From: Escherichia coli
Lineage (GTDB): Bacteria > Pseudomonadota > Gammaproteobacteria > Enterobacterales > Enterobacteriaceae
Assembly (NCBI RefSeq): GCF_001677475.2
Contig: NZ_CP015229.1
DNA: 64,000 nt
Direction: 5' to 3' (one strand)
Shown here: positions 18,028 through 61,037 of the stretch, piece by piece
Layout of the letters: the number at the start of each line of letters is the position of its first letter
Numbering within the stretch: the stretch's first letter is position 1
The notes under the pieces: model-generated
What the model was told of the DNA's origin: nothing
Database searches by the model: none
Seen by the model: only the letters and a program-made list of their open reading frames with translations
Position numbers and translations under genes: made by a program

Positions 18028-19453
<1,426 letters not shown>

Positions 19454-19546
19454 GCTATCATCATTAACTTTATTTATTACCGTCATTCATTTCTGAATGT
19501 CTGTTTACCCCTATTTCAACCGGATGCCTCGCATCCGGTTTTTTTA
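19454..19546 (+). ncRNA. micF: MicF antisense sRNA
   Basis: Matches the MicF sequence as I recall it (GCTATCATCATTAACTTTATTTATTACCGTCATTCATTTCTGAATGTCTG...), ending in hairpin ccggatgcctcgcatccgg plus T7 run. Confidence 0.9.
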
Positions 19547-19856
19547 CCCTTCTTTACACACTTTTCATTATTCTGTGCTACCACAGAAAAACTATAACGC
19601 TTGTTAATTATTTCACAAATAATTAACATCAGCATAATTTCCAGCAATCTTCGTTTATTTGCAATTAATTTCGTTAGGCTTTTTGTAGGTTATTTGTACA
19701 GCAAAATGGCGCTTGTACATCTATTTCCCCCAATGCAGGATGATAAATATCACGGGAGAATAGAGAATCATCAATCAGGTAAGAGTCTGGAATTTCACAC
19801 TGTACCCTTTATACTGCCCTATCACTTCGCGAAGTTTTAACAGGTCATAAACACGA

Positions 19857-22529
19857 ATGCGTCAGAAAGAGACAACGGCCACGACCCGCTTTTCACTCCT
19901 ACCGGGGAGCATTACCCGCTTCTTTTTACTGTTGATCATTGTGTTACTGGTGACGATGGGTGTAATGGTACAAAGCGCCGTTAACGCCTGGCTGAAAGAT
20001 AAAAGTTACCAGATTGTCGACATTACCCACGCTATCCAAAAGCGCGTCGATACCTGGCGTTACGTGACCTGGCAGATCTACGACAACATTGCCGCGACGA
20101 CCTCCCCCTCCTCCGGCGAAGGTTTACAAGAGACGCGCCTGAAACAGGATGTCTACTATCTGGAAAAACCGCGCCGCAAAACGGAAGCGTTAATCTTTGG
20201 CTCTCACGACAACTCAACGCTTGAGATGACTCAACGGATGTCCACCTATCTGGACACATTGTGGGGCGCAGAAAATGTACCGTGGTCGATGTATTACCTG
20301 AATGGTCAGGATAACAGTCTGGTGCTGATCTCAACCCTGCCCCTCAAAGATCTCACCTCCGGATTTAAAGAATCGACCGTCAGTGACATTGTTGATTCAC
20401 GTCGTGCAGAGATGTTGCAACAGGCCAACGCCCTCGATGAACGCGAAAGTTTTTCTAACATGCGCCGCCTGGCCTGGCAGAACGGTCATTACTTTACCTT
20501 GCGTACCACGTTCAACCAGCCGGGACATCTGGCAACGGTCGTGGCTTTTGATCTGCCGATTAATGATTTGATCCCACCGGGTATGCCGCTGGACAGTTTC
20601 CGCCTTGAGCCAGACGCGACGGCAACGGGAGACAATAATAATGAGAAAGAAGGAACGGATAGCGTCAGTATCCACTTTAACAGTACGAAGATTGAAATCT
20701 CCTCGGCACTCAACTCTACCGATATGCGCCTGGTCTGGCAGGTTCCTTATGGCACCTTACTGCTGGATACGTTGCAAAACATTCTGCTGCCACTGCTGCT
20801 GAACATCGGTTTGCTGGCGCTGGCGTTATTTGGCTATACCACATTCCGCCATTTCTCCAGCCGCAGTACAGAAAGCGTCCCCAGCACGGCGGTCAATAAC
20901 GAATTGCGCATTTTACGGGCAATTAATGAAGAGATAGTCTCACTGCTGCCGCTCGGCCTGCTGGTTCACGATCAGGAATCGAACCGCACTGTCATAAGTA
21001 ACAAAATTGCCGATCATTTGCTGCCGCATTTGAATCTGCAAAACATCACCACCATGGCGGAACAGCATCAGGGGATTATTCAGGCGACGATCAATAACGA
21101 GCTGTATGAGATCCGCATGTTCCGCAGCCAGGTTGCGCCGCGCACACAAATTTTCATTATTCGCGATCAGGATCGCGAAGTGCTGGTAAACAAGAAACTC
21201 AAGCAGGCGCAGCGTCTGTATGAGAAAAACCAGCAGGGGCGGATGACCTTTATGAAAAACATTGGCGATGCGCTGAAAGAACCCGCACAGTCCCTGGCGG
21301 AGAGCGCGGCTAAACTCAACGCCCCGGAAAGCAAACAACTGGCGAATCAGGCAGATGTGCTGGTGCGATTGGTCGATGAAATACAGTTAGCGAACATGCT
21401 TGCGGACGATAGCTGGAAAAGTGAGACGGTGCTGTTCTCCGTGCAGGATTTAATTGATGAAGTTGTGCCTTCAGTGTTGCCTGCCATCAAGCGTAAAGGT
21501 CTGCAACTGCTGATTAACAATCATCTGAAAGCACACGATATGCGCCGCGGCGATCGCGATGCCTTACGACGTATTTTGCTGCTACTGATGCAATATGCCG
21601 TGACCTCAACGCAATTGGGAAAAATCACCCTTGAGGTTGATCAGGATGAGTCCTCCGAAGACCGCCTGACGTTCCGCATTCTGGACACCGGAGAAGGCGT
21701 AAGCATTCATGAAATGGATAATTTGCACTTCCCGTTTATCAACCAGACCCAAAACGATCGCTATGGCAAGGCGGACCCGCTGGCATTCTGGCTGAGCGAT
21801 CAACTGGCGCGTAAACTGGGCGGTCATTTAAACATCAAAACGCGGGATGGGCTTGGTACACGCTACTCTGTGCATATCAAAATGCTCGCAGCTGACCCGG
21901 AAGTTGAAGAGGAAGAAGAGCGTTTACTGGATGATGTCTGCGTAATGGTGGATGTTACTTCGGCAGAAATTCGGAATATTGTCACTCGCCAGTTAGAAAA
22001 TTGGGGTGCAACCTGTATCACACCCGATGAAAGATTAATTAGTCAAGATTATGATATCTTTTTAACGGATAATCCGTCTAATCTTACTGCCTCTGGCTTG
22101 CTTTTAAGCGATGATGAGTCTGGCGTACGGGAAATTGGGCCTGGTCAATTGTGCGTCAACTTCAATATGAGCAACGCTATGCAGGAAGCGGTCTTACAAT
22201 TAATTGAAGTGCAACTGGCGCAGGAAGAGGTGACAGAATCGCCTCTGGGCGGAGATGAAAATGCGCAACTCCATGCCAGCGGCTATTATGCGCTCTTTGT
22301 AGACACAGTACCGGATGATGTTAAGAGGCTGTATACTGAAGCAGCAACCAGTGACTTTGCTGCGTTAGCCCAAACGGCTCATCGTCTTAAAGGCGTATTT
22401 GCCATGCTAAATCTGGTACCCGGCAAGCAGTTATGTGAAACGCTGGAACATCTGATTCGTGAGAAGGATGTTCCAGGAATAGAAAAATACATCAGCGACA
22501 TTGACAGTTATGTCAAGAGCTTGCTGTAG
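19857..22529 (+). CDS. rcsD: phosphotransfer intermediate protein RcsD
   Basis: 890 aa ORF with two N-terminal TM segments and C-terminal HPt-like domain; upstream of rcsB. Confidence 0.93.
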   Translation: MRQKETTATTRFSLLPGSITRFFLLLIIVLLVTMGVMVQSAVNAWLKDKSYQIVDITHAIQKRVDTWRYVTWQIYDNIAATTSPSSGEGLQETRLKQDVYYLEKPRRKTEALIFGSHDNSTLEMTQRMSTYLDTLWGAENVPWSMYYLNGQDNSLVLISTLPLKDLTSGFKESTVSDIVDSRRAEMLQQANALDERESFSNMRRLAWQNGHYFTLRTTFNQPGHLATVVAFDLPINDLIPPGMPLDSFRLEPDATATGDNNNEKEGTDSVSIHFNSTKIEISSALNSTDMRLVWQVPYGTLLLDTLQNILLPLLLNIGLLALALFGYTTFRHFSSRSTESVPSTAVNNELRILRAINEEIVSLLPLGLLVHDQESNRTVISNKIADHLLPHLNLQNITTMAEQHQGIIQATINNELYEIRMFRSQVAPRTQIFIIRDQDREVLVNKKLKQAQRLYEKNQQGRMTFMKNIGDALKEPAQSLAESAAKLNAPESKQLANQADVLVRLVDEIQLANMLADDSWKSETVLFSVQDLIDEVVPSVLPAIKRKGLQLLINNHLKAHDMRRGDRDALRRILLLLMQYAVTSTQLGKITLEVDQDESSEDRLTFRILDTGEGVSIHEMDNLHFPFINQTQNDRYGKADPLAFWLSDQLARKLGGHLNIKTRDGLGTRYSVHIKMLAADPEVEEEEERLLDDVCVMVDVTSAEIRNIVTRQLENWGATCITPDERLISQDYDIFLTDNPSNLTASGLLLSDDESGVREIGPGQLCVNFNMSNAMQEAVLQLIEVQLAQEEVTESPLGGDENAQLHASGYYALFVDTVPDDVKRLYTEAATSDFAALAQTAHRLKGVFAMLNLVPGKQLCETLEHLIREKDVPGIEKYISDIDSYVKSLL

Positions 22530-47467: not shown

Positions 47468-47645
47468 TAACTTGTCAGGGAAGTTATCAATATCTGTTTG
47501 TTACTTATTACCGTGTTTATTAACAATAATGATACTTTCTAACATGCGTAAAGGTCTTCGTAATAAAATGAGCTAAATTTGATAGTGAATATATTCTGCA
47601 AAGATTAAATTGTATCTAGTTAACTCACAATACAAGGAATCATTT

Positions 47646-48716
47646 ATGCCAAATACATCTATTCAATTATCTCGCTGTAATATTTTACAAAATAATAAAT
47701 TGCAAACAGCAGAAATTTACAAAGAATCACAACAAACCGCGAAACTTGAGATTTTTTGCAATGAGTTTCTAAAAATATCTCAAAGTAGATTCGGGTTATC
47801 AACCTCAGCAGACAACATAGCTAATTTATTGGCTTTTTTCACGAAAGCCTCAGATGAAATTGATAGTATCAAAACCCAAAAAATTGACGTTCACAGTTAT
47901 GGTTTCGTACCAATAAGACATTTTGTCGAGCATGTCATAACGTATAAAAATGAATTTGCAGAAGATTATGAACCCTATACCCTTACCTTTACCCGAGGTG
48001 AAAACAACGAAGGTGTTTTGAGTATCGAAAGCAAAGAAGGGTTTCTTTCAGAAAGAACAATAAATTTAAATGAATATGAAACTGCAATTAACATCATCAA
48101 TGAGCATGTTGCAAAAGAAAATATCAATAACAAGATCCAAACATTGACAGACAAAGACACACCAAAAATAACCAACTCTGACAAAATTTATAAATTTATC
48201 CACGAGTTAAATATAAGAACTCAACTTTACAGCAAGCAAAAAGAATATACAGACCTGCTACTACATTCTGAGAAAAATACAGAATGGTACAAATACACAT
48301 CCTCCGAGGAACGCTATGATGTATTTAAGAATTCTTCTAAAAAAATTGAAAATACCTACAAGCAAATTGTGCAAGCGCAGAAAAAATTGAAGCAAATGAA
48401 ATACATCAATAAATTAAGTGGTGAGCTTATCGATATCGCCGACAAAAAGTTAGCACCATTAATAAATGATAGTTTCAGCTATACACGAGATTTCTTTGCT
48501 TACTCAAAAAATGAAAAAAATATCTTCACATTTGATAATTCTAAGTTTTTAGATCCAAAGGAAAAAGAAGGTTTAATGATACAACACAGCAATGGGCAAC
48601 TGGTTATTACTGGTAAATATTGCCCTGAAGGTATGCAAACAGCATTCACCCAAGAACAATATGATAAATTAATAAGATACATTAATATTTTCTTTACTTT
48701 CCAGAAATGCGAATAA
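47646..48716 (+). CDS. uncharacterised soluble protein (about 356 aa) on an AT-rich single-gene islet; no recognisable domain
   Basis: Uninterrupted 1.1 kb reading frame in about 30% GC DNA, where random frames are stop-rich; AAGGA Shine-Dalgarno 7 nt before ATG at 47646 (the track ORF begins at an upstream TTG at 47610); K/E/N-rich, no signal peptide or TM segment. Confidence 0.7.
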   Translation: MPNTSIQLSRCNILQNNKLQTAEIYKESQQTAKLEIFCNEFLKISQSRFGLSTSADNIANLLAFFTKASDEIDSIKTQKIDVHSYGFVPIRHFVEHVITYKNEFAEDYEPYTLTFTRGENNEGVLSIESKEGFLSERTINLNEYETAINIINEHVAKENINNKIQTLTDKDTPKITNSDKIYKFIHELNIRTQLYSKQKEYTDLLLHSEKNTEWYKYTSSEERYDVFKNSSKKIENTYKQIVQAQKKLKQMKYINKLSGELIDIADKKLAPLINDSFSYTRDFFAYSKNEKNIFTFDNSKFLDPKEKEGLMIQHSNGQLVITGKYCPEGMQTAFTQEQYDKLIRYINIFFTFQKCE

Positions 48717-48903
48717 TACTGTACATTATAAACTGCATTACAATTTATTATTGAGCCCTATTCATACTGTTTAAAGAATAACAATACCCAGTGTTAGCTT
48801 TCCTAACAAATGAGTTTTACGCAAATATGTTGGCATCTTTTTTAACAGGATGCTCAGGTGAATGAATAGAATAACCGGTAGTAGCATTATTTCGCTTTAG
48901 CTG

Positions 48904-48927
48904 AGGATGGCGCATGAACGCCATCCT
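48904..48927 (-). terminator. stem-loop immediately downstream of glpQ
   Basis: Stem aggatggcg / cgccatcct with 6 nt loop, 10 nt past the glpQ stop; no clear U-tract. Confidence 0.45.
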
Positions 48928-48936
48928 GCAGTAGCA

Positions 48937-50013
48937 TTACTCTTTATTAAGGAATTTTACTGCCTTATCAGGGAAATCAGTAAACAGCCCATTTACACCC
49001 GCTTTGTCATACAGAACATCATATAACTGATTCACATCAGTAGTGTATTCAGGCAGTTTATCTGACCGCACGGTATAAGGATGCACTACCAGTTTATTCT
49101 GCTGAGCATCTTGCACCATGCCAGTGAGTTTGATATTACCCGGCTGCGATGTCTCCTCAATCAACATATGGTAATCCGGGCCAATACCATCTGCATATTC
49201 CGCCACCTGTTTCATGGCACCCGGCTTAAACATCCAGTCGTAGTTGTAATTAACCCAGCTTCCGTCCGGCTGTTTCTGCTGCGTTTCATTCCAGTCGGTA
49301 TAGGCAATCAGCTGTACCAGATTGAGATCCATGCCCATTTTAGGTTCCAGCTCATTCTTAATACGCTTCAGCTCATCAGCATCAAAACATTGTAAATAAA
49401 CTTTGTCGTCCTTACCGGTGTAACCATATTTCTTCAGCACTTCCAGCGTTTTTGCCGCAATATCCTTCCCTTCCTGATGATGGAACCACGGTGCTTTAAT
49501 TTCTGGATAGATACCGATATTTTTCCCGGTAGAGTGATTTAACCCCTGAACAAATTCAATCTCTTCTTCAAAGGTGTGCACCCGGAAGTCGGACTTACCC
49601 ATTGGGAAACGCCCCGGATAAGTCTGCACTTTTTTACCGTTTTCAATATCGAAACCTTCGGTAAATTTCAGCGACTTAATTTCATCCAGCGTGAAATCTA
49701 TCGCGTAGTAACGACCGTCTTTGCGCGCCCGATCCGGGAAACGATCGGCAACATCAGTAACACGATCGAGGTAATGGTCATGCAGAACAACCAGATGGTC
49801 GTCTTTGGTCATCACCAAATCCTGTTCCAGATAATCCGCTCCCTGCGCATACGCCATCGCTTTTGCTGGCAGCGTATGCTCCGGCAAATATCCACTGGCA
49901 CCGCGATGGGCGATGACTATTTTTTCGTTGCTGTCCGCCGCCATTGCACTGCTTCCCATGACTATAGTGCTCATCATGATCGCCATGCTAAGGTTTTTCA
50001 GCGTCAATTTCAT
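48937..50013 (-). CDS. glpQ: periplasmic glycerophosphodiester phosphodiesterase
   Basis: Start at MKLTLKNLSMAIMMSTIVMGSSAMA signal peptide, followed by HRGASGYLPEHT active-site region; track N-terminal extension rejected. Confidence 0.95.
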   Translation of the reverse strand: MKLTLKNLSMAIMMSTIVMGSSAMAADSNEKIVIAHRGASGYLPEHTLPAKAMAYAQGADYLEQDLVMTKDDHLVVLHDHYLDRVTDVADRFPDRARKDGRYYAIDFTLDEIKSLKFTEGFDIENGKKVQTYPGRFPMGKSDFRVHTFEEEIEFVQGLNHSTGKNIGIYPEIKAPWFHHQEGKDIAAKTLEVLKKYGYTGKDDKVYLQCFDADELKRIKNELEPKMGMDLNLVQLIAYTDWNETQQKQPDGSWVNYNYDWMFKPGAMKQVAEYADGIGPDYHMLIEETSQPGNIKLTGMVQDAQQNKLVVHPYTVRSDKLPEYTTDVNQLYDVLYDKAGVNGLFTDFPDKAVKFLNKE

Positions 50014-56085: not shown

Positions 56086-56676
56086 GTGAAAGCAAAAATT
56101 CTCATTCCATCGTTATCTGTTCTCTTGATGGGTATATCGGCTTTAAGTTATGCGGACACTCCTGCCGGTAAAGTTCATTTCAATGGGCTAATTACTGCAT
56201 CAACTTGTGACTTAGAGCAAGGTACAGGCAAGGGACAGAATGACCAGACCGTAACGCTTCAGACAGTGGACGTTGCTGATTTTGGCGCTGCTGTAGGTAA
56301 TGAAGCAGCAAACTCTGCAACAGATTTTAATATTAATCTTACCGGTTGTACGACACAATTAGGTAGCATCAACCTTGAATTTAGCGGTAATACCACCGAT
56401 GCCACCGATAATACAGCCCTGGCAATTGACACCGGTGCAGATAAAGCAACAGGCGTAGGGATTCGTATTTATCGTGAAGGTGCTTCTTCACCGATTAATT
56501 TTGCTACTGATCGTACCGATGCAGAAAGCTCTGCGGTAACACTTTCATCCATTAGCCCAACCAATGGTGATGGCAAGCATAGCTTTAATTATAAAGCGGT
56601 TTATGTCAGAACAGCAGATACAATTACTGAAGGTCAGGGTAACGCGACTGCGGATTATCGTATCGCTTACTATTAA
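56086..56676 (+). CDS. fimbrial major subunit (chaperone-usher pilin)
   Basis: 196 aa; GTG start with AAAAGGA Shine-Dalgarno; signal peptide; Cys pair typical of type 1-like pilins; C-terminal donor-strand-like YRIAYY. Confidence 0.8.
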   Translation: MKAKILIPSLSVLLMGISALSYADTPAGKVHFNGLITASTCDLEQGTGKGQNDQTVTLQTVDVADFGAAVGNEAANSATDFNINLTGCTTQLGSINLEFSGNTTDATDNTALAIDTGADKATGVGIRIYREGASSPINFATDRTDAESSAVTLSSISPTNGDGKHSFNYKAVYVRTADTITEGQGNATADYRIAYY

Positions 56677-56733
56677 TGATATATTTCAAAGGGGTGAAAT
56701 TACTACACCCCTTAATTACTAAAGTAAAAATGC

Positions 56734-57438
56734 ATGAAAAAATACTCTTTATTACTGATTGTATTATTTGCCAACATTGCTTACGGGGGAGTGGTTATTC
56801 GGGGAACAAGAATTATTTACCCGTCCACGGCGCGGGAAATCCCTGTAGAAGTGACGAATCAAGATAAAGAGCGTTCATACCTTGTTCAGGCCTGGATGAG
56901 TGACTTTGCCAATGATGCAAATAAGAAAACGCCATTTGTACTCACTCCGCCGTTAGTTAAACTGGAAGCTCAGAAAAACACGCTTTTCCGCTTAATCTAT
57001 ACCGGTACGCAAAAATTGCCGGAGGATCGTGAATCCATTTTTTGGCTAAATGTAAAATCCATTCCTGGGATGTCAGAAGAGTCTTCACAGGTGCCGAATC
57101 AACTGCAATTTGCCGTTCAGAGCCAGCTCAAAGTTTTTTATCGTCCGCTGGGGCTTGCTGATGATGCCAATACCGCCTATAGCAAAATCGCTTTCCGGAT
57201 ACAAGGCAACAGGCTAATCGCCAAAAACCCAACACCTTACTTTGTCACCTTCCGCACTCTGGCAGTGAATGGTAAGCCCGTATCGTATAAAGGAAACGGC
57301 GTTGTGAAAATGATGCTCAATCCATTTGGCGAGCAAACATATACTCTGACCGCATCCTCTTCTGAAAACAATAGTGTTGAATGGTCAGCAATAAATGATT
57401 ACGGCGGTACGACAAATACCATAAAGACCCGGTTATAA
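56734..57438 (+). CDS. periplasmic fimbrial chaperone (PapD/FimC-like)
   Basis: 234 aa with signal peptide and conserved N-terminal chaperone motif (GTRIIYP...); between pilin and usher genes. Confidence 0.85.
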   Translation: MKKYSLLLIVLFANIAYGGVVIRGTRIIYPSTAREIPVEVTNQDKERSYLVQAWMSDFANDANKKTPFVLTPPLVKLEAQKNTLFRLIYTGTQKLPEDRESIFWLNVKSIPGMSEESSQVPNQLQFAVQSQLKVFYRPLGLADDANTAYSKIAFRIQGNRLIAKNPTPYFVTFRTLAVNGKPVSYKGNGVVKMMLNPFGEQTYTLTASSSENNSVEWSAINDYGGTTNTIKTRL

Positions 57439-57499
57439 GCGCAATAGATTGTTCAGGAAAACGACAGGAATTATCTCGTACAAGGAAAGTAATAATAAC

Positions 57500-59986
57500 A
57501 TGAACTCCTTACATCTATTTTGTTTGCATGTTGTTGTAACAATAGTGCCATTGACACTGTTACAAAACAGTTACGCCCGCGAGGTGTTTAATTACAAACT
57601 TTTAGAGTCAGGGGCTTCAGAAAGCGAACTGGAAGCCATTAAAAATTTTGACAAAAATGATGGCCTGGTGCCCGGTAAATATCGGGTCGATGTTTTTATG
57701 AATAATCAACGCATTACACGTAAAGATATTGATTTTGTCGTTGATGATAAAGCGAACAAACTCTTACCTGTGTTAAGCAAAAAAGAGTATATCGCTATGG
57801 GGGTTGCCGATAGCCCCTCCGCGTCATTTGCCACGCTGGCAAATGACGATATCGTGACGAATTTAGAAAATTATATTCCCTTTTCATCAGTGCGCTTTGA
57901 GCAAAGTTCGCTGCGTCTGTATCTGTCAGTTCCACAACTGGCGATGAACAATGCCGCAAACGGGTATATTGATCCGGTTTTATGGGATAATGGATTGCCT
58001 GCGTTGTTTACAAATTACTATTTTAGCGGCTCACATAATTGGCAAGATGGTCGTTCAGATAATAGTTCATATCTTAATCTGAATAATGGTATTAATCTTG
58101 GTCCCTGGCGTTTAAGAAATAACATTAATTATAACGATGGCACCTGGCAAAATATTGATACCTATATCTGGCGAAATATCCCTGCGTTAACCAGCAAACT
58201 CATTCTTGGCGATACCTGGACAGATTCAGCCGTTTTCGATAGTTTCCAGTTTCGCGGGGTAAAACTGGAAAGTAATGAAAATATGCTTCCTTACAGCATG
58301 AGAGGTTTTGCCCCCGTTATTCGCGGCGTTGCCAAAAGCAATGCGCAAGTGACGATTCGACAAAATAATTATATTATTTACCAAAGTACGGTATCCCCAG
58401 GTCCTTTCGAATTACATGATGTCTCTCCTGTTTCTTCTGGTGGGGATATGGAAGTCACGGTAAAAGAATCTGATGGTAGCGAACAAAAATATATTCAGGC
58501 ATCAGCTTCAATTCCTGTCATGCGCCGAGAAGGAGCCATGTCTTATAGTTTATCTGGCGGAGAATATCGCTCATCTGATAACTCCCATGATAAACCCGGC
58601 TTTGCTCAGGCGACGCTGATTTACGGTTTACCTGCAGGCATTACCCTCTATGGTGGCACAATTTTTGCCAGTGATTATCGTTCTGGCGCATTAGGTGCGG
58701 GTGTCGATTTACAACACTTTGGCTCGCTTTCAGCAGACATTACTCGTTCATATAGCCAGACGGTTGATGACAGTTCACAACAAGGACAATCTTACCGATT
58801 GCTTTACTCGAAAAATTTCTCCAGCACTGAAACGAATATCACGCTTGCTGGCTACCGTTATTCCACAGAGAATTTCTATACCTTTAGCGAAGCACAAAAT
58901 AATAAAGAGTATGATGAGGACGACGCGTTTTCATACCGTAACAACTATAACCGCCATCGTCGGTTACAACTTACCATTAATCAGGCGATCCCCTCGTTTG
59001 GTCAGTTCAATATTTCAGGCTATCAACAAGATTATTGGGGACTCGGGGGTAAAGAGCGCAGCCTCAGCGTAGGGTATAGTCATAGTTGGGAAAATGTGAG
59101 TTTTAGCCTAAGTTATTTACTGACACGAATGCCAGACAATAATAAGAACGATCAACAACTCTCACTTTCTGTCAGCGTTCCACTAGGAAAATGGTTACCT
59201 GGTGCGCATGTTAATTACAATAACACCAGCAGTAATAGCGGTCACACTTTAAACAGTGTGGCGCTTAACGGTACTGCGCTGGAAGATAATAATCTCAGTT
59301 ATAGTCTGCAACAAAGTCATGGCGATCAAGGTTATGGTGGCAATACGTCACTCAGTTATCGCTCCAGTAAAGGCGTAATAGGCGCAGGCTGGAACTATAG
59401 TCAGGATCAACGGCAATTAAATTACAATATGCAGGGCGCAATTGTTCTGCATCCGTATGGATTAACCCTTGCCCAGTCTTTAGGTGAATCATCGATTCTG
59501 GTGCGCGCCCCTGATGCCAGTGGGCTGGGCATTAACAGAGGAACGTCGGTTTATACCGACTGGCGAGGATACTCCATCATCCCTTACGCATCAGCATTTC
59601 AGCGCAACCGTATCGCCATCAATACGCAAACCTTGCCGTCAAATGTTGAAATACCGGAACCGGTACAAGAAGTTATTCCTACGGAAGGCGCATTAGTCGT
59701 AGCCAATTTTTCAACGCGATATGGTCAGAAATTACTTTTAACCTTAATGCATAAAGACAAATTTGTTCCCTTTGGAGCCGTAGTCACTGCTGAAGATGAG
59801 CAAATTTCAACCCTCGTTGGGCGAAACGGTGAAACGTATTTATCCGGCGTACAAGCTAATCAAAAATGGCAAGTCAAGTGGGGAAAATCGGCCACTGAAA
59901 GTTGCCAGGTTCATATATCACCAGAACTACTTCAGACACCGCAAAACATGACTAATCTTATTATTGCCACCGCAGCGTGTGATTAA
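57500..59986 (+). CDS. outer membrane fimbrial usher (FimD/PapC-like)
   Basis: About 829 aa from ATG at 57500 (track ORF starts at upstream TTG); signal peptide, large beta-barrel, C-terminal Cys pair. Confidence 0.85.
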   Translation: MNSLHLFCLHVVVTIVPLTLLQNSYAREVFNYKLLESGASESELEAIKNFDKNDGLVPGKYRVDVFMNNQRITRKDIDFVVDDKANKLLPVLSKKEYIAMGVADSPSASFATLANDDIVTNLENYIPFSSVRFEQSSLRLYLSVPQLAMNNAANGYIDPVLWDNGLPALFTNYYFSGSHNWQDGRSDNSSYLNLNNGINLGPWRLRNNINYNDGTWQNIDTYIWRNIPALTSKLILGDTWTDSAVFDSFQFRGVKLESNENMLPYSMRGFAPVIRGVAKSNAQVTIRQNNYIIYQSTVSPGPFELHDVSPVSSGGDMEVTVKESDGSEQKYIQASASIPVMRREGAMSYSLSGGEYRSSDNSHDKPGFAQATLIYGLPAGITLYGGTIFASDYRSGALGAGVDLQHFGSLSADITRSYSQTVDDSSQQGQSYRLLYSKNFSSTETNITLAGYRYSTENFYTFSEAQNNKEYDEDDAFSYRNNYNRHRRLQLTINQAIPSFGQFNISGYQQDYWGLGGKERSLSVGYSHSWENVSFSLSYLLTRMPDNNKNDQQLSLSVSVPLGKWLPGAHVNYNNTSSNSGHTLNSVALNGTALEDNNLSYSLQQSHGDQGYGGNTSLSYRSSKGVIGAGWNYSQDQRQLNYNMQGAIVLHPYGLTLAQSLGESSILVRAPDASGLGINRGTSVYTDWRGYSIIPYASAFQRNRIAINTQTLPSNVEIPEPVQEVIPTEGALVVANFSTRYGQKLLLTLMHKDKFVPFGAVVTAEDEQISTLVGRNGETYLSGVQANQKWQVKWGKSATESCQVHISPELLQTPQNMTNLIIATAACD

Positions 59987-59990
59987 CATC

Positions 59991-61037
59991 ATGAAGATAA
60001 AAATCATCAGTACTTATAAAGTTACAAGTCGTGAAACGTTATTGCTGCTGGTTATTTTGATAGCAGCCTTTGTTCCTTCTCTTAGTTTCGCTAAAACATG
60101 TAGCTACGCCAGTGGTGGACCGGCATTAGTTTCATTTTCTGATATTTCGATCAATTCTGAATACAATAAAAATACAGCGCCAGGAACCATAATTTTTGAT
60201 CGAAGTTATCATTCCAGTCACTCAGGACAGATCACATGCTCAGACAATTATCCTGATTACAGTGAAGGGTTTGCCACTTCTCCTTCAACTTTAGTCGGCA
60301 GTGATATCTGTTTATTCAATGTACCTTTGACTAATGGAAAAAATTCTGGCATCGGCATTAAAATATTTTACGATTTAAAGAATAATAATACCACCCCAAA
60401 CAATTACTGCATGGAATACCCTAAACGTACCAGCACTGCAAATAAAAACAACTTTTCCGTTGAGGGTAATTTCCGCATACAATTAAAAGTCATCGGGGAA
60501 TTACAGAGTGGTGAAATTGATTTATCTCGTTTTAGTAATGCTGGCATTTGGTGGAATAATATTGAGGCATTTTCTCTCGAATTTAGCAACACCATTATTA
60601 ATCTTCACTCATTGAGCTGCGACCTGAACACGCCTGATGTTCCAGTTTCATTATCACCCGCCGCAGGAATTAATTCCGACATCACCTTCAAAGGGATTAA
60701 CTCCACTTCGGCGCTGGTAGATTTTAATATCGGACTAACGTGTGATCCGGGAACCAATGTCGCCATACGTTTTGAAGGCGATACGGTAAGTGGAAGTAAT
60801 AATTCAATCCTGAAGCTAACTCAACAGAATAATTCTGCCTCTGGGGTTGGCGTACAGATCTTAGATAAGAATAAAAATATTATCCCCCTTAATCAACCTG
60901 ATTACGTTTTACAGTTAAGTAATATTCAGCAATCAGCCACGTCGTTGAATTTTAGTGCGCGATATATTCAGACAGAAAGTAATGTAACGCCAGGAAAAGC
61001 GGATGCGGATGCGACATTTTATCTTTCGTTTCCGTAA
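59991..61037 (+). CDS. fimbrial tip adhesin / minor subunit (two-domain)
   Basis: About 349 aa from ATG at 59991; signal peptide; N/S/T-rich N-terminal domain plus C-terminal pilin-like domain; last gene of operon. Confidence 0.7.
   Translation: MKIKIISTYKVTSRETLLLLVILIAAFVPSLSFAKTCSYASGGPALVSFSDISINSEYNKNTAPGTIIFDRSYHSSHSGQITCSDNYPDYSEGFATSPSTLVGSDICLFNVPLTNGKNSGIGIKIFYDLKNNNTTPNNYCMEYPKRTSTANKNNFSVEGNFRIQLKVIGELQSGEIDLSRFSNAGIWWNNIEAFSLEFSNTIINLHSLSCDLNTPDVPVSLSPAAGINSDITFKGINSTSALVDFNIGLTCDPGTNVAIRFEGDTVSGSNNSILKLTQQNNSASGVGVQILDKNKNIIPLNQPDYVLQLSNIQQSATSLNFSARYIQTESNVTPGKADADATFYLSFP

What the first reader, a model, noticed from the sequence alone, without database searches (positions are those of the whole stretch)
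47470..48900. AT-rich single-gene islet between inaA/yfaH and glpQ carrying an uncharacterised ~356 aa protein
This stretch drops to roughly 30% GC (I counted 22% and 35% on two sampled 60-nt lines) against about 50% in the flanking core genes, yet holds one uninterrupted 1.1 kb frame with a good Shine-Dalgarno, so it is very likely a real horizontally acquired gene. The product is soluble, K/E/N-rich and shows no motif I recognise (no P-loop, no signal peptide, no obvious nuclease or kinase signature). As I recall K-12, the inaA-glpQ interval holds only the yfaH pseudogene, so this is an insertion into a conserved neighbourhood. Compact orphan genes of this kind are typical of anti-phage defence or toxin/effector cargo; its S/T/N/Q-rich N-terminus is also compatible with a secreted effector. 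Function is unknown.
Basis: partly seen in the sequence, partly recalled or inferred. Interest (0 to 1): 0.8.

Follow-up and report, generated by a model that had tools for sequence, protein, structure and literature searches.

The report
E. coli-only orphan gene islet

Summary
A ~1.71-kb segment with 33% GC (window 47190-48904; window mean 50%) carries one 356-aa ORF (47646-48716, AAGGA Shine-Dalgarno).

- **Insertion:** it sits 9 nt after the stop of the yfaH/LysR remnant and directly before the terminator hairpin shared with glpQ. Other Escherichia species, Citrobacter and Salmonella arizonae have the same site empty.
- **No relatives:** none were found outside Escherichia in about 15 billion proteins. 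Pfam, NCBIfam, PADLOC, PHROGs and PDB gave no hits. AlphaFold confidence was about 42, which is unusable.
- **Selection:** it evolves fast (dN/dS about 0.6, against 0.03-0.1 for the flanks), yet 14 of 17 sampled copies are intact. There is no nonsense change in at least 138 substitutions (p about 0.005), and the O157 allele carries a compensated frameshift pair.

The defence, toxin or effector reading is untested and has no positive support. My best guess, at low confidence, is a dispensable stand-alone conflict-type protein. A decaying relic is the main rival. Moderate-to-low interest.

The parts
46933..46945 (.). [not shown]
   Evidence: Two alignments of the window to O157 locus L002 overlap at window 46933-46945, and L002 1134-3000 is missing from the window.
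46974..47180 (+). yfaH: the C-terminal remnant of the LysR-family regulator. Its stop codon is at 47178-47180.
   Evidence: ORF list. PGAP annotates it as a 'LysR substrate-binding domain-containing protein, incomplete' in L001. The full-length gene is present in O157.
47190..48904 (+). The inserted AT-rich segment, about 1.71 kb, with a junction ambiguity of 1-4 nt. It has no target-site duplication, no terminal inverted repeats and no mobility gene.
   Evidence: It is absent from K-12-type L003, from L092 (MFS and LysR intact), and from Escherichia sp. E1V33 and E. whittamii. All of these read ...GAGACA|GGATGGCG.... GC is 0.328.
47229..47342 (-). A decayed copy of the last ~25 codons of inaA plus its REP-like 3' flank. 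The best-supported core is 47249-47320, which begins exactly at the position of the inaA stop codon.
   Evidence: blastn against the window's own inaA gives 64 nt at 73% (E 4.5e-5), with matches to inaA of L013 and L015 too. tblastn with InaA residues 191-215 gives 52% identity (E 5e-5). The local alignment scores 45 against shuffles of 17 +/- 2.2, maximum 34.
47343..47645 (+). Upstream or leader region of the gene, with the Shine-Dalgarno AAGGA at 47634-47638. It is more conserved among alleles than the ORF. No consensus sigma-70 promoter, Rfam family or stable RNA fold was found.
   Evidence: Seven-allele alignment: 4 differences in about 285 nt between the window and O157, against about 7% in the ORF. 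Promoter scan, Rfam, folding z-scores -0.16 and 0.04.
47646..48716 (+). [not shown]
   Evidence: Translation. Sakai annotation. 14 of 17 sampled copies are intact. No family hits. Homologues occur only in Escherichia.
47910..47945 (+). The only catalytic-looking motif: P89-I-R-H-F-V-E-H-V-I-T-Y100. It lies within an invariant block spanning residues 80-105 and contains both Rx4H and HxxEH. This is a lead only.
   Evidence: Residues 80-105 are invariant in the 11-sequence alignment. Both AlphaFold models place the motif at the start of a helix, but at low confidence. No HEPN or M16 profile matches.
48125..48278 (+). Hypervariable linker (about codons 160-211). It includes a hyperdivergent patch and two A-runs (48238-48242 and 48273-48277) that are indel hotspots.
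   Evidence: 31-37 differences fall in 120 nt, against about 3% elsewhere. The O157-type allele has -1 and +1 changes 35 nt apart that recode 11 residues. L095 (+1) and L102 (uncompensated -1) are frameshifted in the first A-run.
48717..48904 (+). The 3' flank of the insert. CCGGTAGTAGCATTA (48875-48889) repeats CCTGCAGTAGCATTA (48925-48939), which lies on the far side of the hairpin.
   Evidence: Direct-repeat family D2. Sequence.
48905..48926 (.). Ancestral hairpin GGATGGCG-CATGAA-CGCCATCC between the convergent LysR and glpQ genes. The insert landed immediately to its left.
   Evidence: The hairpin is present at filled and empty sites alike, including other Escherichia species.
48937..50013 (-). 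glpQ, the convergent core neighbour.
   Evidence: ORF list. PGAP annotation of orthologues. dN/dS is 0.01-0.06.

Best explanation

Origin (inferred). The insert still holds a decayed inaA 3' end. It therefore probably arrived by recombination from an unsampled enterobacterial relative in which the gene lay between inaA and glpQ. It has since segregated within E. coli by homologous recombination. All four combinations of MFS-LysR full or deleted with orphan present or absent exist. It has been lost, or was never gained, in about 80% of genomes.

The protein. It is soluble, with no signal peptide or membrane segment noticed. It has a conserved acidic N-terminal part (predicted helices, then a three-stranded meander and a helix). 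A hypervariable, indel-tolerant helical linker follows, and then a conserved basic C-terminal part. Amino-acid constraint is weak, but the reading frame is actively kept, so a full-length product matters in at least some lineages.

Mechanism (about 0.3 confidence). It is a dispensable, normally poorly expressed, stand-alone 'conflict' protein of the kind bacteria keep for phage exclusion or self-limiting toxicity. On this reading the invariant R91-H92-x-x-E95-H96 cluster in the N-terminal helical part is the active site. It would be either a HEPN-like RNase motif (Rx4H) or an inverted zinc-binding motif (HxxEH). The variable linker and C-terminal part would set specificity. Silencing by H-NS is expected from the AT content and was not tested.
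For: - **Insertion and site:**
- **Single origin, single locus:** 1052 of 5426 genomes carry it, all places chromosomal, at most two matching places per genome. The only hit in the plasmid collection is a mislabelled 4.9-Mb chromosome, and there are no phage hits.
- **inaA relic inside the insert:**
- **Orphan status:** phmmer against 1.84 billion representatives finds only fragments of the same gene. A word-indexed search of 5.8 billion clusters, with the single sequence and with a profile at E<=5, returns the same 23 Escherichia entries.
- **Real coding gene:** 14 of 17 sampled copies are intact, with at least 138 substitutions and no nonsense change; simulated P is 0.0045. The O157 allele has a compensated -1/+1 frameshift pair.
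- **Fast evolution typical of conflict or accessory genes:** dN/dS is 0.5-0.7, against 0.01-0.18 for glpQ and inaA in informative comparisons of the same genomes. There is a hyperdivergent linker patch. Presence is patchy, with recurrent IS1 and frameshift knock-outs.
- **Mosaic recombination:** the window and L001 differ by dS 0.02 in the orphan but by 0.33 in glpQ and 0.25 in inaA.
- **Motif:** it lies within a fully invariant block, residues 80-105.
Against: - There is no positive functional evidence of any kind.
- PADLOC returns 0 families. The one sub-threshold JetA hit, at 12 bits, is coiled-coil noise.
- No HEPN, Abi or peptidase profile matches in Pfam, even at E<=10.
- The site is not a defence hotspot. 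It holds only this cargo or nothing, and neither flanking gene is named in the main text of the E. coli defence-island survey.
- True defence genes usually spread across taxa on mobile elements. This one is confined to one species and one locus.
- Rx4H or HxxEH in a 356-aa protein is expected by chance at the few-percent level, and I found it after looking for several motif classes.
- About 70% of alignment columns are invariant anyway, so invariance of the motif says little.
- Variable sites are spread almost evenly over codon positions (48/36/48), as expected for near-neutral evolution.
- Both structure models are unusable, with pLDDT 42.8 and 41.0.
Confidence: 0.4

Rival explanations
1. Decaying relic. 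The gene was functional in its donor or in early E. coli. It is now a silenced xenogene drifting toward loss, and the open frame in many strains reflects past selection and limited elapsed time rather than present function.
For: dN/dS is 0.5-0.7, and pairwise values are not significantly below 1. Variable sites are nearly uniform across codon positions. The gene is absent from about 80% of genomes. About 27% of carriers are visibly disrupted: 12 of 60 sampled rows have IS1A inside the ORF, 3 have 1-nt indels and 1 has an IS1-mediated truncation. Codon adaptation is poor. No consensus promoter was found.
Against: There is no nonsense mutation in at least 138 substitutions among 14 intact alleles, although 5.7% of possible single changes create stops (P about 0.005). 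The O157-type frameshift was repaired by a second-site indel rather than left open. The N- and C-terminal parts are several-fold more conserved than the linker. The 285 nt upstream are well conserved.
Confidence: 0.27
2. Type III secreted effector, translocated by the LEE system in EHEC and/or originally by the cryptic ETT2 system of E. coli. The S/T/N/Q/I-rich, acid-free first 22 residues would be the secretion signal.
Confidence: 0.1
3. [not shown]
For: The gene has the same orientation as the LysR gene and lies about 465 bp downstream of it. The C-terminal half is basic, with pI 8.9. The upstream region is conserved.
Confidence: 0.08

Closest known systems
[not shown]
   Same: Same locus, same length (1071 nt) and same flanks on the glpQ side. 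It is 83% identical in protein and about 93% in DNA. This is the orthologue.
[not shown]
   Same: A short strain-specific segment interrupting the K-12 backbone at the same interval, with foreign composition and no mobility genes.
   Different: OI-97 is really ancestral DNA that K-12 deleted, since the MFS-LysR pair is present in Citrobacter, Salmonella arizonae and other Escherichia species. The orphan segment is a genuine insertion found in no outgroup. I could not confirm the island number for the orphan segment; searches for OI-98 found nothing.
Single-gene abortive-infection proteins with a HEPN RNase domain, such as the lactococcal AbiD/AbiF (Abi_2) family. The comparison is from my own knowledge.
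   Same: About 350 aa, stand-alone, very AT-rich and K/E/N-rich, with no partner gene. An Rx4H motif with a polar residue after the Arg sits at the start of a predicted helix that follows two long helices.
   Different: There is no sequence-profile match to any HEPN or Abi family in Pfam or PADLOC, even at permissive thresholds. The fold is unverified. The gene is not on a plasmid, phage or defence island.
Nle-type type III effectors of attaching-effacing E. coli. The comparison is from my own knowledge.
   Same: Low GC, narrow taxonomic range, no homologues of known function, and an N-terminus poor in acidic residues.
   Different: The gene is not prophage- or island-borne. It is present in many lineages that appear to be non-A/E. 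It is never reported as secreted.

Membership tests
Any curated protein family (Pfam-A, NCBIfam, PHROGs) | A significant profile-HMM match | tested here: not met
   Pfam gave no match at E<=10 for the protein or for 11 alleles; the best was DUF6585 at 0.017 in 2 members. The best NCBIfam E-values were 0.068 and 0.011, at 12-15 bits against cut-offs of 350-409. The best PHROGs E-value was 0.12.
Known or candidate anti-phage defence systems (PADLOC-DB v2) | A match to a defence-protein model | tested here: not met
   0 families for the whole protein and for the O157 allele. There was one 12-bit JetA hit (E 0.019) for the C-terminal fragment only.
Known or candidate anti-phage defence systems (PADLOC-DB v2) | Location in a defence island or a variable hotspot with alternative cargo, or on a mobile element | tested here: not met
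   Across 5425 genomes the interval holds only this segment, the MFS-LysR genes, or deletions of them. There are no plasmid or phage copies.
HEPN-domain RNases | An Rx4-6H motif | tested here: met
   R91-H-F-V-E-H96 is invariant in all alleles. The chance expectation is not negligible, roughly 0.03-0.2 per protein of this composition (my estimate).
HEPN-domain RNases | A four-helix up-down bundle with the motif at the start of the last helix | tested here: inconclusive
   Both AlphaFold models predict helices at 22-49, 55-76 and 88-103, but mean pLDDT is 42.8 and 41.0. Foldseek against the PDB gave nothing at E<=0.001.
HEPN-domain RNases | Sequence-profile similarity to a HEPN family | tested here: not met
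   No HEPN or Abi family appears in the Pfam or PADLOC output.
M16 'inverzincin' metallopeptidases | An HxxEH zinc-binding motif | tested here: met
   H92-F-V-E95-H96. The chance expectation is about 0.01 per protein of this composition (my estimate).
M16 'inverzincin' metallopeptidases | A Peptidase_M16 domain match and a third Glu ligand about 70-77 residues downstream | tested here: not met
   There is no Pfam match. The nearest conserved Glu residues (E143, E145, E153, E158) lie 47-62 residues after H96. The expected spacing is recalled from memory.
Type III secretion effectors | T3SS-dependent secretion or translocation | not testable with these tools
   This needs secretion or translocation assays. 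The acid-free, S/T/N/Q-rich N-terminal composition is compatible but not diagnostic.
Type III secretion effectors | Restriction to T3SS-bearing strains, and linkage to prophages, effector islands or a chaperone gene | tested here: inconclusive
   There is no prophage, island or chaperone context. Carriers include many isolates that do not look like A/E pathogens. I did not cross-tabulate LEE or ETT2 presence.
Horizontally acquired genomic islet / taxonomically restricted (orphan) gene | Absent from the orthologous site of close relatives and outgroups, deviant composition, and no homologues outside the lineage | tested here: met
   Empty sites in K-12-type E. coli, Escherichia sp. E1V33 and E. 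whittamii; Citrobacter, S. enterica arizonae and Pluralibacter also lack the gene between LysR and glpQ. GC is 0.33 against 0.50. Homologues occur only in Escherichia.

The most novel reading that the evidence does not exclude
The protein founds a new family, and perhaps a new fold, confined to E. coli, with a real conflict or host-interaction function. One version is a stand-alone phage-exclusion or toxin protein that uses the invariant R-H-x-x-E-H cluster as a new catalytic site. The other is a leftover effector of the cryptic ETT2 (or LEE) type III system, for which almost no substrates are known. In either case the indel-prone hypervariable linker would be a specificity or evasion module.
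Probability: 0.18. Interest if true: 0.65.

Novelty: new member of a known kind. Interest (0 to 1): 0.33.

Why it matters

- one locus, with exact insertion junctions;
- outgroups with empty sites;
- a relic pointing to how it arrived;
- no relative among about 15 billion proteins;
- population evidence that the frame is kept while the sequence drifts.

That makes it a tractable test case for what young or orphan bacterial genes do.

There is also a practical point. NCBI's pipeline labels most intact copies 'frameshifted' pseudogenes, because its reference allele carries a compensated frameshift. Pangenome studies therefore under-count this gene.

If it turns out to be a relic, it is simply a well-documented example of xenogene decay.

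Tried and rejected
- **Remote homology:** I tried phmmer on 1.84 billion representatives, two word-indexed searches of 5.8 billion clusters (single sequence, then profile at E<=5), and PDB sequence searches with the single sequence and with a profile. I also scanned Pfam, NCBIfam, PADLOC and PHROGs with the whole protein and, in NCBIfam and PADLOC, with the N- and C-terminal parts separately. Nothing emerged beyond the same gene.
- **Structure:** AlphaFold2 on the 11-allele alignment and on the N-terminal 166 residues gave pLDDT 42.8 and 41.0. Foldseek of the poor model against the PDB gave no hit at E<=0.001. I draw no fold conclusion.
- **Internal duplication:** the N- and C-terminal beta-hairpin-plus-helix modules looked alike by eye (NEYETAINIIN against EQYDKLIRYIN). 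hhalign gives probability 0.2%, so I rejected this.
- **Mobile-element origin:** there is no plasmid or phage DNA or protein match and no TSD, IR, integrase or tRNA at the junctions.
- **Second gene in the insert:** the 72-aa ORF at 47358-47576 is open in 6 of 7 alleles, but all ten of its changes are non-synonymous and one allele has a stop. I rejected it as coding.
- **Structured RNA, riboswitch or sRNA upstream:** Rfam gave nothing at E<=1, and folding z-scores were about 0 on both strands.
- **'Frame disrupted in most homologues':** the PGAP 'frameshifted' flags suggested this, but translating the flagged 1071-nt copies shows intact frames.
- **'K-12 lost the gene by deletion':** this was my first reading, because the window shares K-12's MFS-LysR deletion. 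I rejected it after the outgroups showed that the empty junction is ancestral.

Full report
**1. The observation**

The stretch is as described.
- GC in 300-nt windows falls to 0.29-0.35 between 47450 and 48950. It is 0.44-0.58 in nrdB, yfaE, inaA, glpQ and glpT.
- The segment as a whole has GC 0.328, against 0.505 for the window. The ORF has GC 0.313 and GC3 0.30. Its codon usage fits the local core genes poorly, with an index of 0.56 against 0.62-0.79.
- One frame is open from 47610 to 48716. The ATG used in every annotated orthologue is at 47646, giving 356 aa, with AAGGA 7 nt upstream.
- The other five frames of the segment hold open stretches of at most 85 codons and carry 27-54 stops each. 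A 356-codon frame is not a chance event here.

**2. What the locus is**

The flanks are nrdB, yfaE and inaA on the left and glpQ and glpT on the right. Across 5426 complete E. coli genomes the interval takes a few forms.
- **Full form (O157:H7, O55:H7 and others):** inaA | MFS transporter | LysR regulator | orphan | glpQ.
- **Window form:** the same, minus 1867 bp that spanned most of the MFS gene and the 5' part of the LysR gene. What remains is the yfaH remnant.
- **K-12-like form:** yfaH remnant and no orphan.
- **MFS and LysR intact, no orphan** (L092).
- **inaA directly next to glpQ** (L093).

**3. Insertion or deletion?**

I used glpQ to fetch the locus from 80 species representatives. 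I then searched those loci with the orphan, MFS, LysR and InaA proteins.
- Escherichia sp. E1V33, E. whittamii, several Citrobacter species, Salmonella enterica arizonae and Pluralibacter all have glpQ | LysR | MFS (in the two Escherichia species followed by inaA). None has the orphan.
- In the two Escherichia species the LysR stop lies about 48 bp from the glpQ stop. The sequence between reads ...TTTGA-AGTAAGACA-GGATGGCG...CGCCATCC.
- The empty E. coli sites have the same architecture (...TTTGA-TGTGAGACA-GGATGGCG...). They include one with intact MFS-LysR genes.

The empty site is therefore ancestral. Window 47190-48904 is a true insertion, 9 nt after the LysR stop and directly before the hairpin at 48905-48926. 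The MFS-LysR pair is ancestral, and its absence from the window is a separate deletion with 13 nt of microhomology at 46933-46945. All four combinations of the two polymorphisms occur, so recombination has shuffled them.

**4. Where the insert came from**

- It has no target duplication, terminal repeats or mobility gene.
- It has no relative on plasmids or phages. The single hit in the plasmid collection is a 4.9-Mb chromosome filed as a plasmid.
- Window 47229-47342 is a decayed copy of the last ~25 codons of inaA plus its REP-like 3' flank, in inaA's orientation.
  - blastn gives E 4.5e-5.
  - tblastn gives 52% identity over InaA residues 191-215 (E 5e-5).
  - The local alignment scores 45, against 17 +/- 2.2 for shuffles.
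- It is about 70% identical to every Escherichia inaA I hold, and no allele stands out as closest.
- At the right end, a 15-nt copy of the sequence beyond the hairpin is repeated.

The simplest reading is inference, not proof. The segment came by recombination from an unsampled relative in which the orphan lay between a truncated inaA and glpQ.

**5. Distribution and integrity**

- The ORF is found in 1052 of 5426 genomes. All 1055 matching places are chromosomal, with at most two per genome.
- In an evenly spaced sample of 60 carriers, 12 have IS1A inside the ORF. One has an IS1-mediated truncation. Three differ in length by 1 nt. The other 44 are exactly 1071 nt.
- I translated 17 copies of 1070-1072 nt. 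All 14 that are exactly 1071 nt are intact.
- The three length variants are frameshifted. Two of the shifts are in the same A-run.
- About 73% of carriers therefore look intact.
- PGAP marks 9 of these 14 intact copies as 'frameshifted' pseudogenes. The likely cause is the O157-type allele. Relative to the others it has a -1 change in one A-run and a +1 change 35 nt downstream. These recode KEYTDLLLHSE to RNIQTCYYILR and restore the frame. Protein-guided annotation presumably sees two frame changes. L102 carries the uncompensated -1 change.

**6. Selection**

- Nei-Gojobori dN/dS is 0.5-0.7 for divergent allele pairs. The N- and C-terminal parts have dN of about 0.04, and the linker about 0.3.
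- In the same genomes glpQ and inaA give 0.01-0.18 in informative comparisons, with dS of 0.04-0.33.
- Variable sites are spread 48/36/48 over the three codon positions.
- Amino-acid constraint is therefore weak. Yet at least 138 substitutions separate the 14 intact alleles with no stop created, although 5.7% of possible single changes would create one. Simulation gives P = 0.0045.
- Together with the compensated frameshift, this argues that a full-length product is or was selected.
- The window-type allele carries a 120-nt patch (ORF nt 480-600) that is 28% divergent from the other alleles, against about 3% elsewhere. I cannot tell whether this is imported or fast-evolving.
- The window and L001 are nearly identical in the orphan (dS 0.02) but very different in glpQ and inaA (dS 0.33 and 0.25). 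That is direct evidence of mosaic recombination.

**7. The protein**

- It is 41.7 kDa with pI 6.4, rich in K, I, E and N, and I noticed no signal peptide or membrane segment in the sequence.
- The N-terminal part (1-160) is acidic and the C-terminal part (210-356) is basic.
- It has no relatives outside Escherichia by any search and no family hits.
- AlphaFold2 gave pLDDT 42.8 for the full length and 41.0 for the N-terminal part. Only a secondary-structure sketch is usable: helices at 22-49, 55-76 and 88-103; strands at 111-140; a helix at 141-164; long helices at 178-273; a hairpin at 311-322; a helix at 336-351.
- Foldseek found nothing. An apparent internal repeat did not survive hhalign.
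- The only catalytic-looking feature is PIRHFVEHVITY (residues 89-100), within an invariant block spanning residues 80-105. It contains both Rx4H and HxxEH. This is a lead found after the fact, with no profile support.

**8. Mechanism**

*Shown:* it is a real, intact, foreign, species-restricted gene, single-copy and tied to one locus. It evolves fast, its frame is kept, and it is often lost or knocked out.

*Inferred:*
- The most likely class is a dispensable stand-alone conflict-type protein, for phage exclusion or toxin-like action, with the RHxxEH cluster as the candidate active site (about 0.3).
- The main rival is a decaying relic (about 0.27).
- A type III effector is possible (about 0.1). 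It fits the composition and taxonomic restriction, but not the lack of island context or the wide strain range.
- A role tied to the neighbouring regulator or to glp/inaA is unlikely (about 0.08), because the orphan and those genes occur independently.

No published work mentions the gene.

**9. Verdict**

The defence, toxin or effector suggestion is neither supported nor excluded. The gene is already annotated, as a hypothetical protein, in thousands of genomes. It is a clean example of an orphan gene rather than evidence of a new kind of system. Interest is moderate-to-low unless experiments reveal an activity.

Noticed in passing
L001 3948-5018; L008, L010 and L011 3501-4571; L096, L099, L100, L101 and L103 601-1671: RefSeq/PGAP annotates these copies of the orphan gene as 'frameshifted' pseudogenes, yet each is an uninterrupted 356-codon frame. 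The likely cause is protein-guided comparison with the O157-type allele, which carries a compensated -1/+1 frameshift pair. Pangenome counts of this gene will be too low.
   Followed up: yes
window 48238-48242 and 48273-48277 (A-runs); L002 and L009 for the O157-type allele; L095, L102: Two A-runs 35 nt apart in the linker are indel hotspots. O157-type alleles have -1 and +1 changes, which restore the frame with 11 residues recoded. L102 has only the -1 change and L095 has a +1 change in the first run, so both are truncated. This looks like slippage with occasional rescue. Whether it acts as a phase switch is unknown.
   Followed up: partly
window 47229-47342: A decayed copy of the inaA 3' end and its REP-like flank lies inside the inserted segment, 1.1 kb from the real inaA. 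It is about 70% identical to every Escherichia inaA available, so the donor is unidentified.
   Followed up: partly
window 46933-46945; L002 1134-3000: The yfaH 'pseudogene' state, in K-12 and in this window, results from a 1867-bp deletion between 13-nt microhomologies. It removed most of an MFS transporter gene and the 5' part of a LysR regulator gene. That gene pair is ancestral (present in Citrobacter, Salmonella arizonae and other Escherichia species), although the literature calls it a laterally acquired O-island (OI-97).
   Followed up: yes
window 48125-48245 (ORF nt 480-600): A 120-nt patch is about 28% divergent between the window-type allele (also L001, and the near-identical P0001 and P0003) and all other alleles, against about 3% over the rest of the gene. 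Both synonymous and non-synonymous sites are affected. It may be imported from an unsampled homologue or may be locally accelerated; this is unexplained.
   Followed up: partly
window 47360-47645: The ~285 nt upstream of the start codon differ at only 4 positions between the window and O157, against about 7% in the ORF and about 10% in the 180 nt further upstream. No promoter consensus, Rfam family or RNA structure signal explains this.
   Followed up: partly
L097 1381-2139; L105 1743-2500; 12 of 60 rows: IS1A sits inside the orphan ORF (after about codon 260) in a set of ~4.7-4.8-Mb, mostly human isolates that probably form one lineage. A different IS1A event in L105 deleted from the MFS gene to the last 201 nt of the orphan.
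   Followed up: partly
L001 and L008 (glpQ, inaA) against the window: Strains 2013C-4282 and EC42405 carry glpQ and inaA alleles with dS of 0.24-0.33 from the window. That is far above typical within-species values, while the orphan of 2013C-4282 (L001) is nearly identical to the window's (dS 0.02; EC42405/L008 dS 0.08). The flanks appear to have been replaced by recombination from a divergent lineage.
   Followed up: no
window 56086-61037: A four-gene chaperone-usher fimbrial operon (major subunit, chaperone, usher and a 357-aa tip or adhesin-like subunit; GC 0.39-0.44) lies between glpC and yfaY. O157 Sakai has yfaD and the rhm (rhamnonate) genes at that position. This is another accessory segment in the window.
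   Followed up: partly
L012 9080-9420 (Escherichia albertii NBRC 107761): In the E. albertii type strain glpQ is followed directly by yfaE. inaA and the MFS-LysR pair are all missing, a larger deletion at the same interval.
   Followed up: no
window 19001-20000 and 41001-42000: Two further 1-kb bins have low GC, 0.38 and 0.36. The second lies just upstream of nrdA. I did not examine either.
   Followed up: no
P0023 (ENA metagenome protein, 408 aa): This protein carries nucleotidyltransferase Pfam domains (PF01467, PF05636). It matches 35% of the orphan at 90% identity. It is probably a chimeric or misassembled contig.
   Followed up: no
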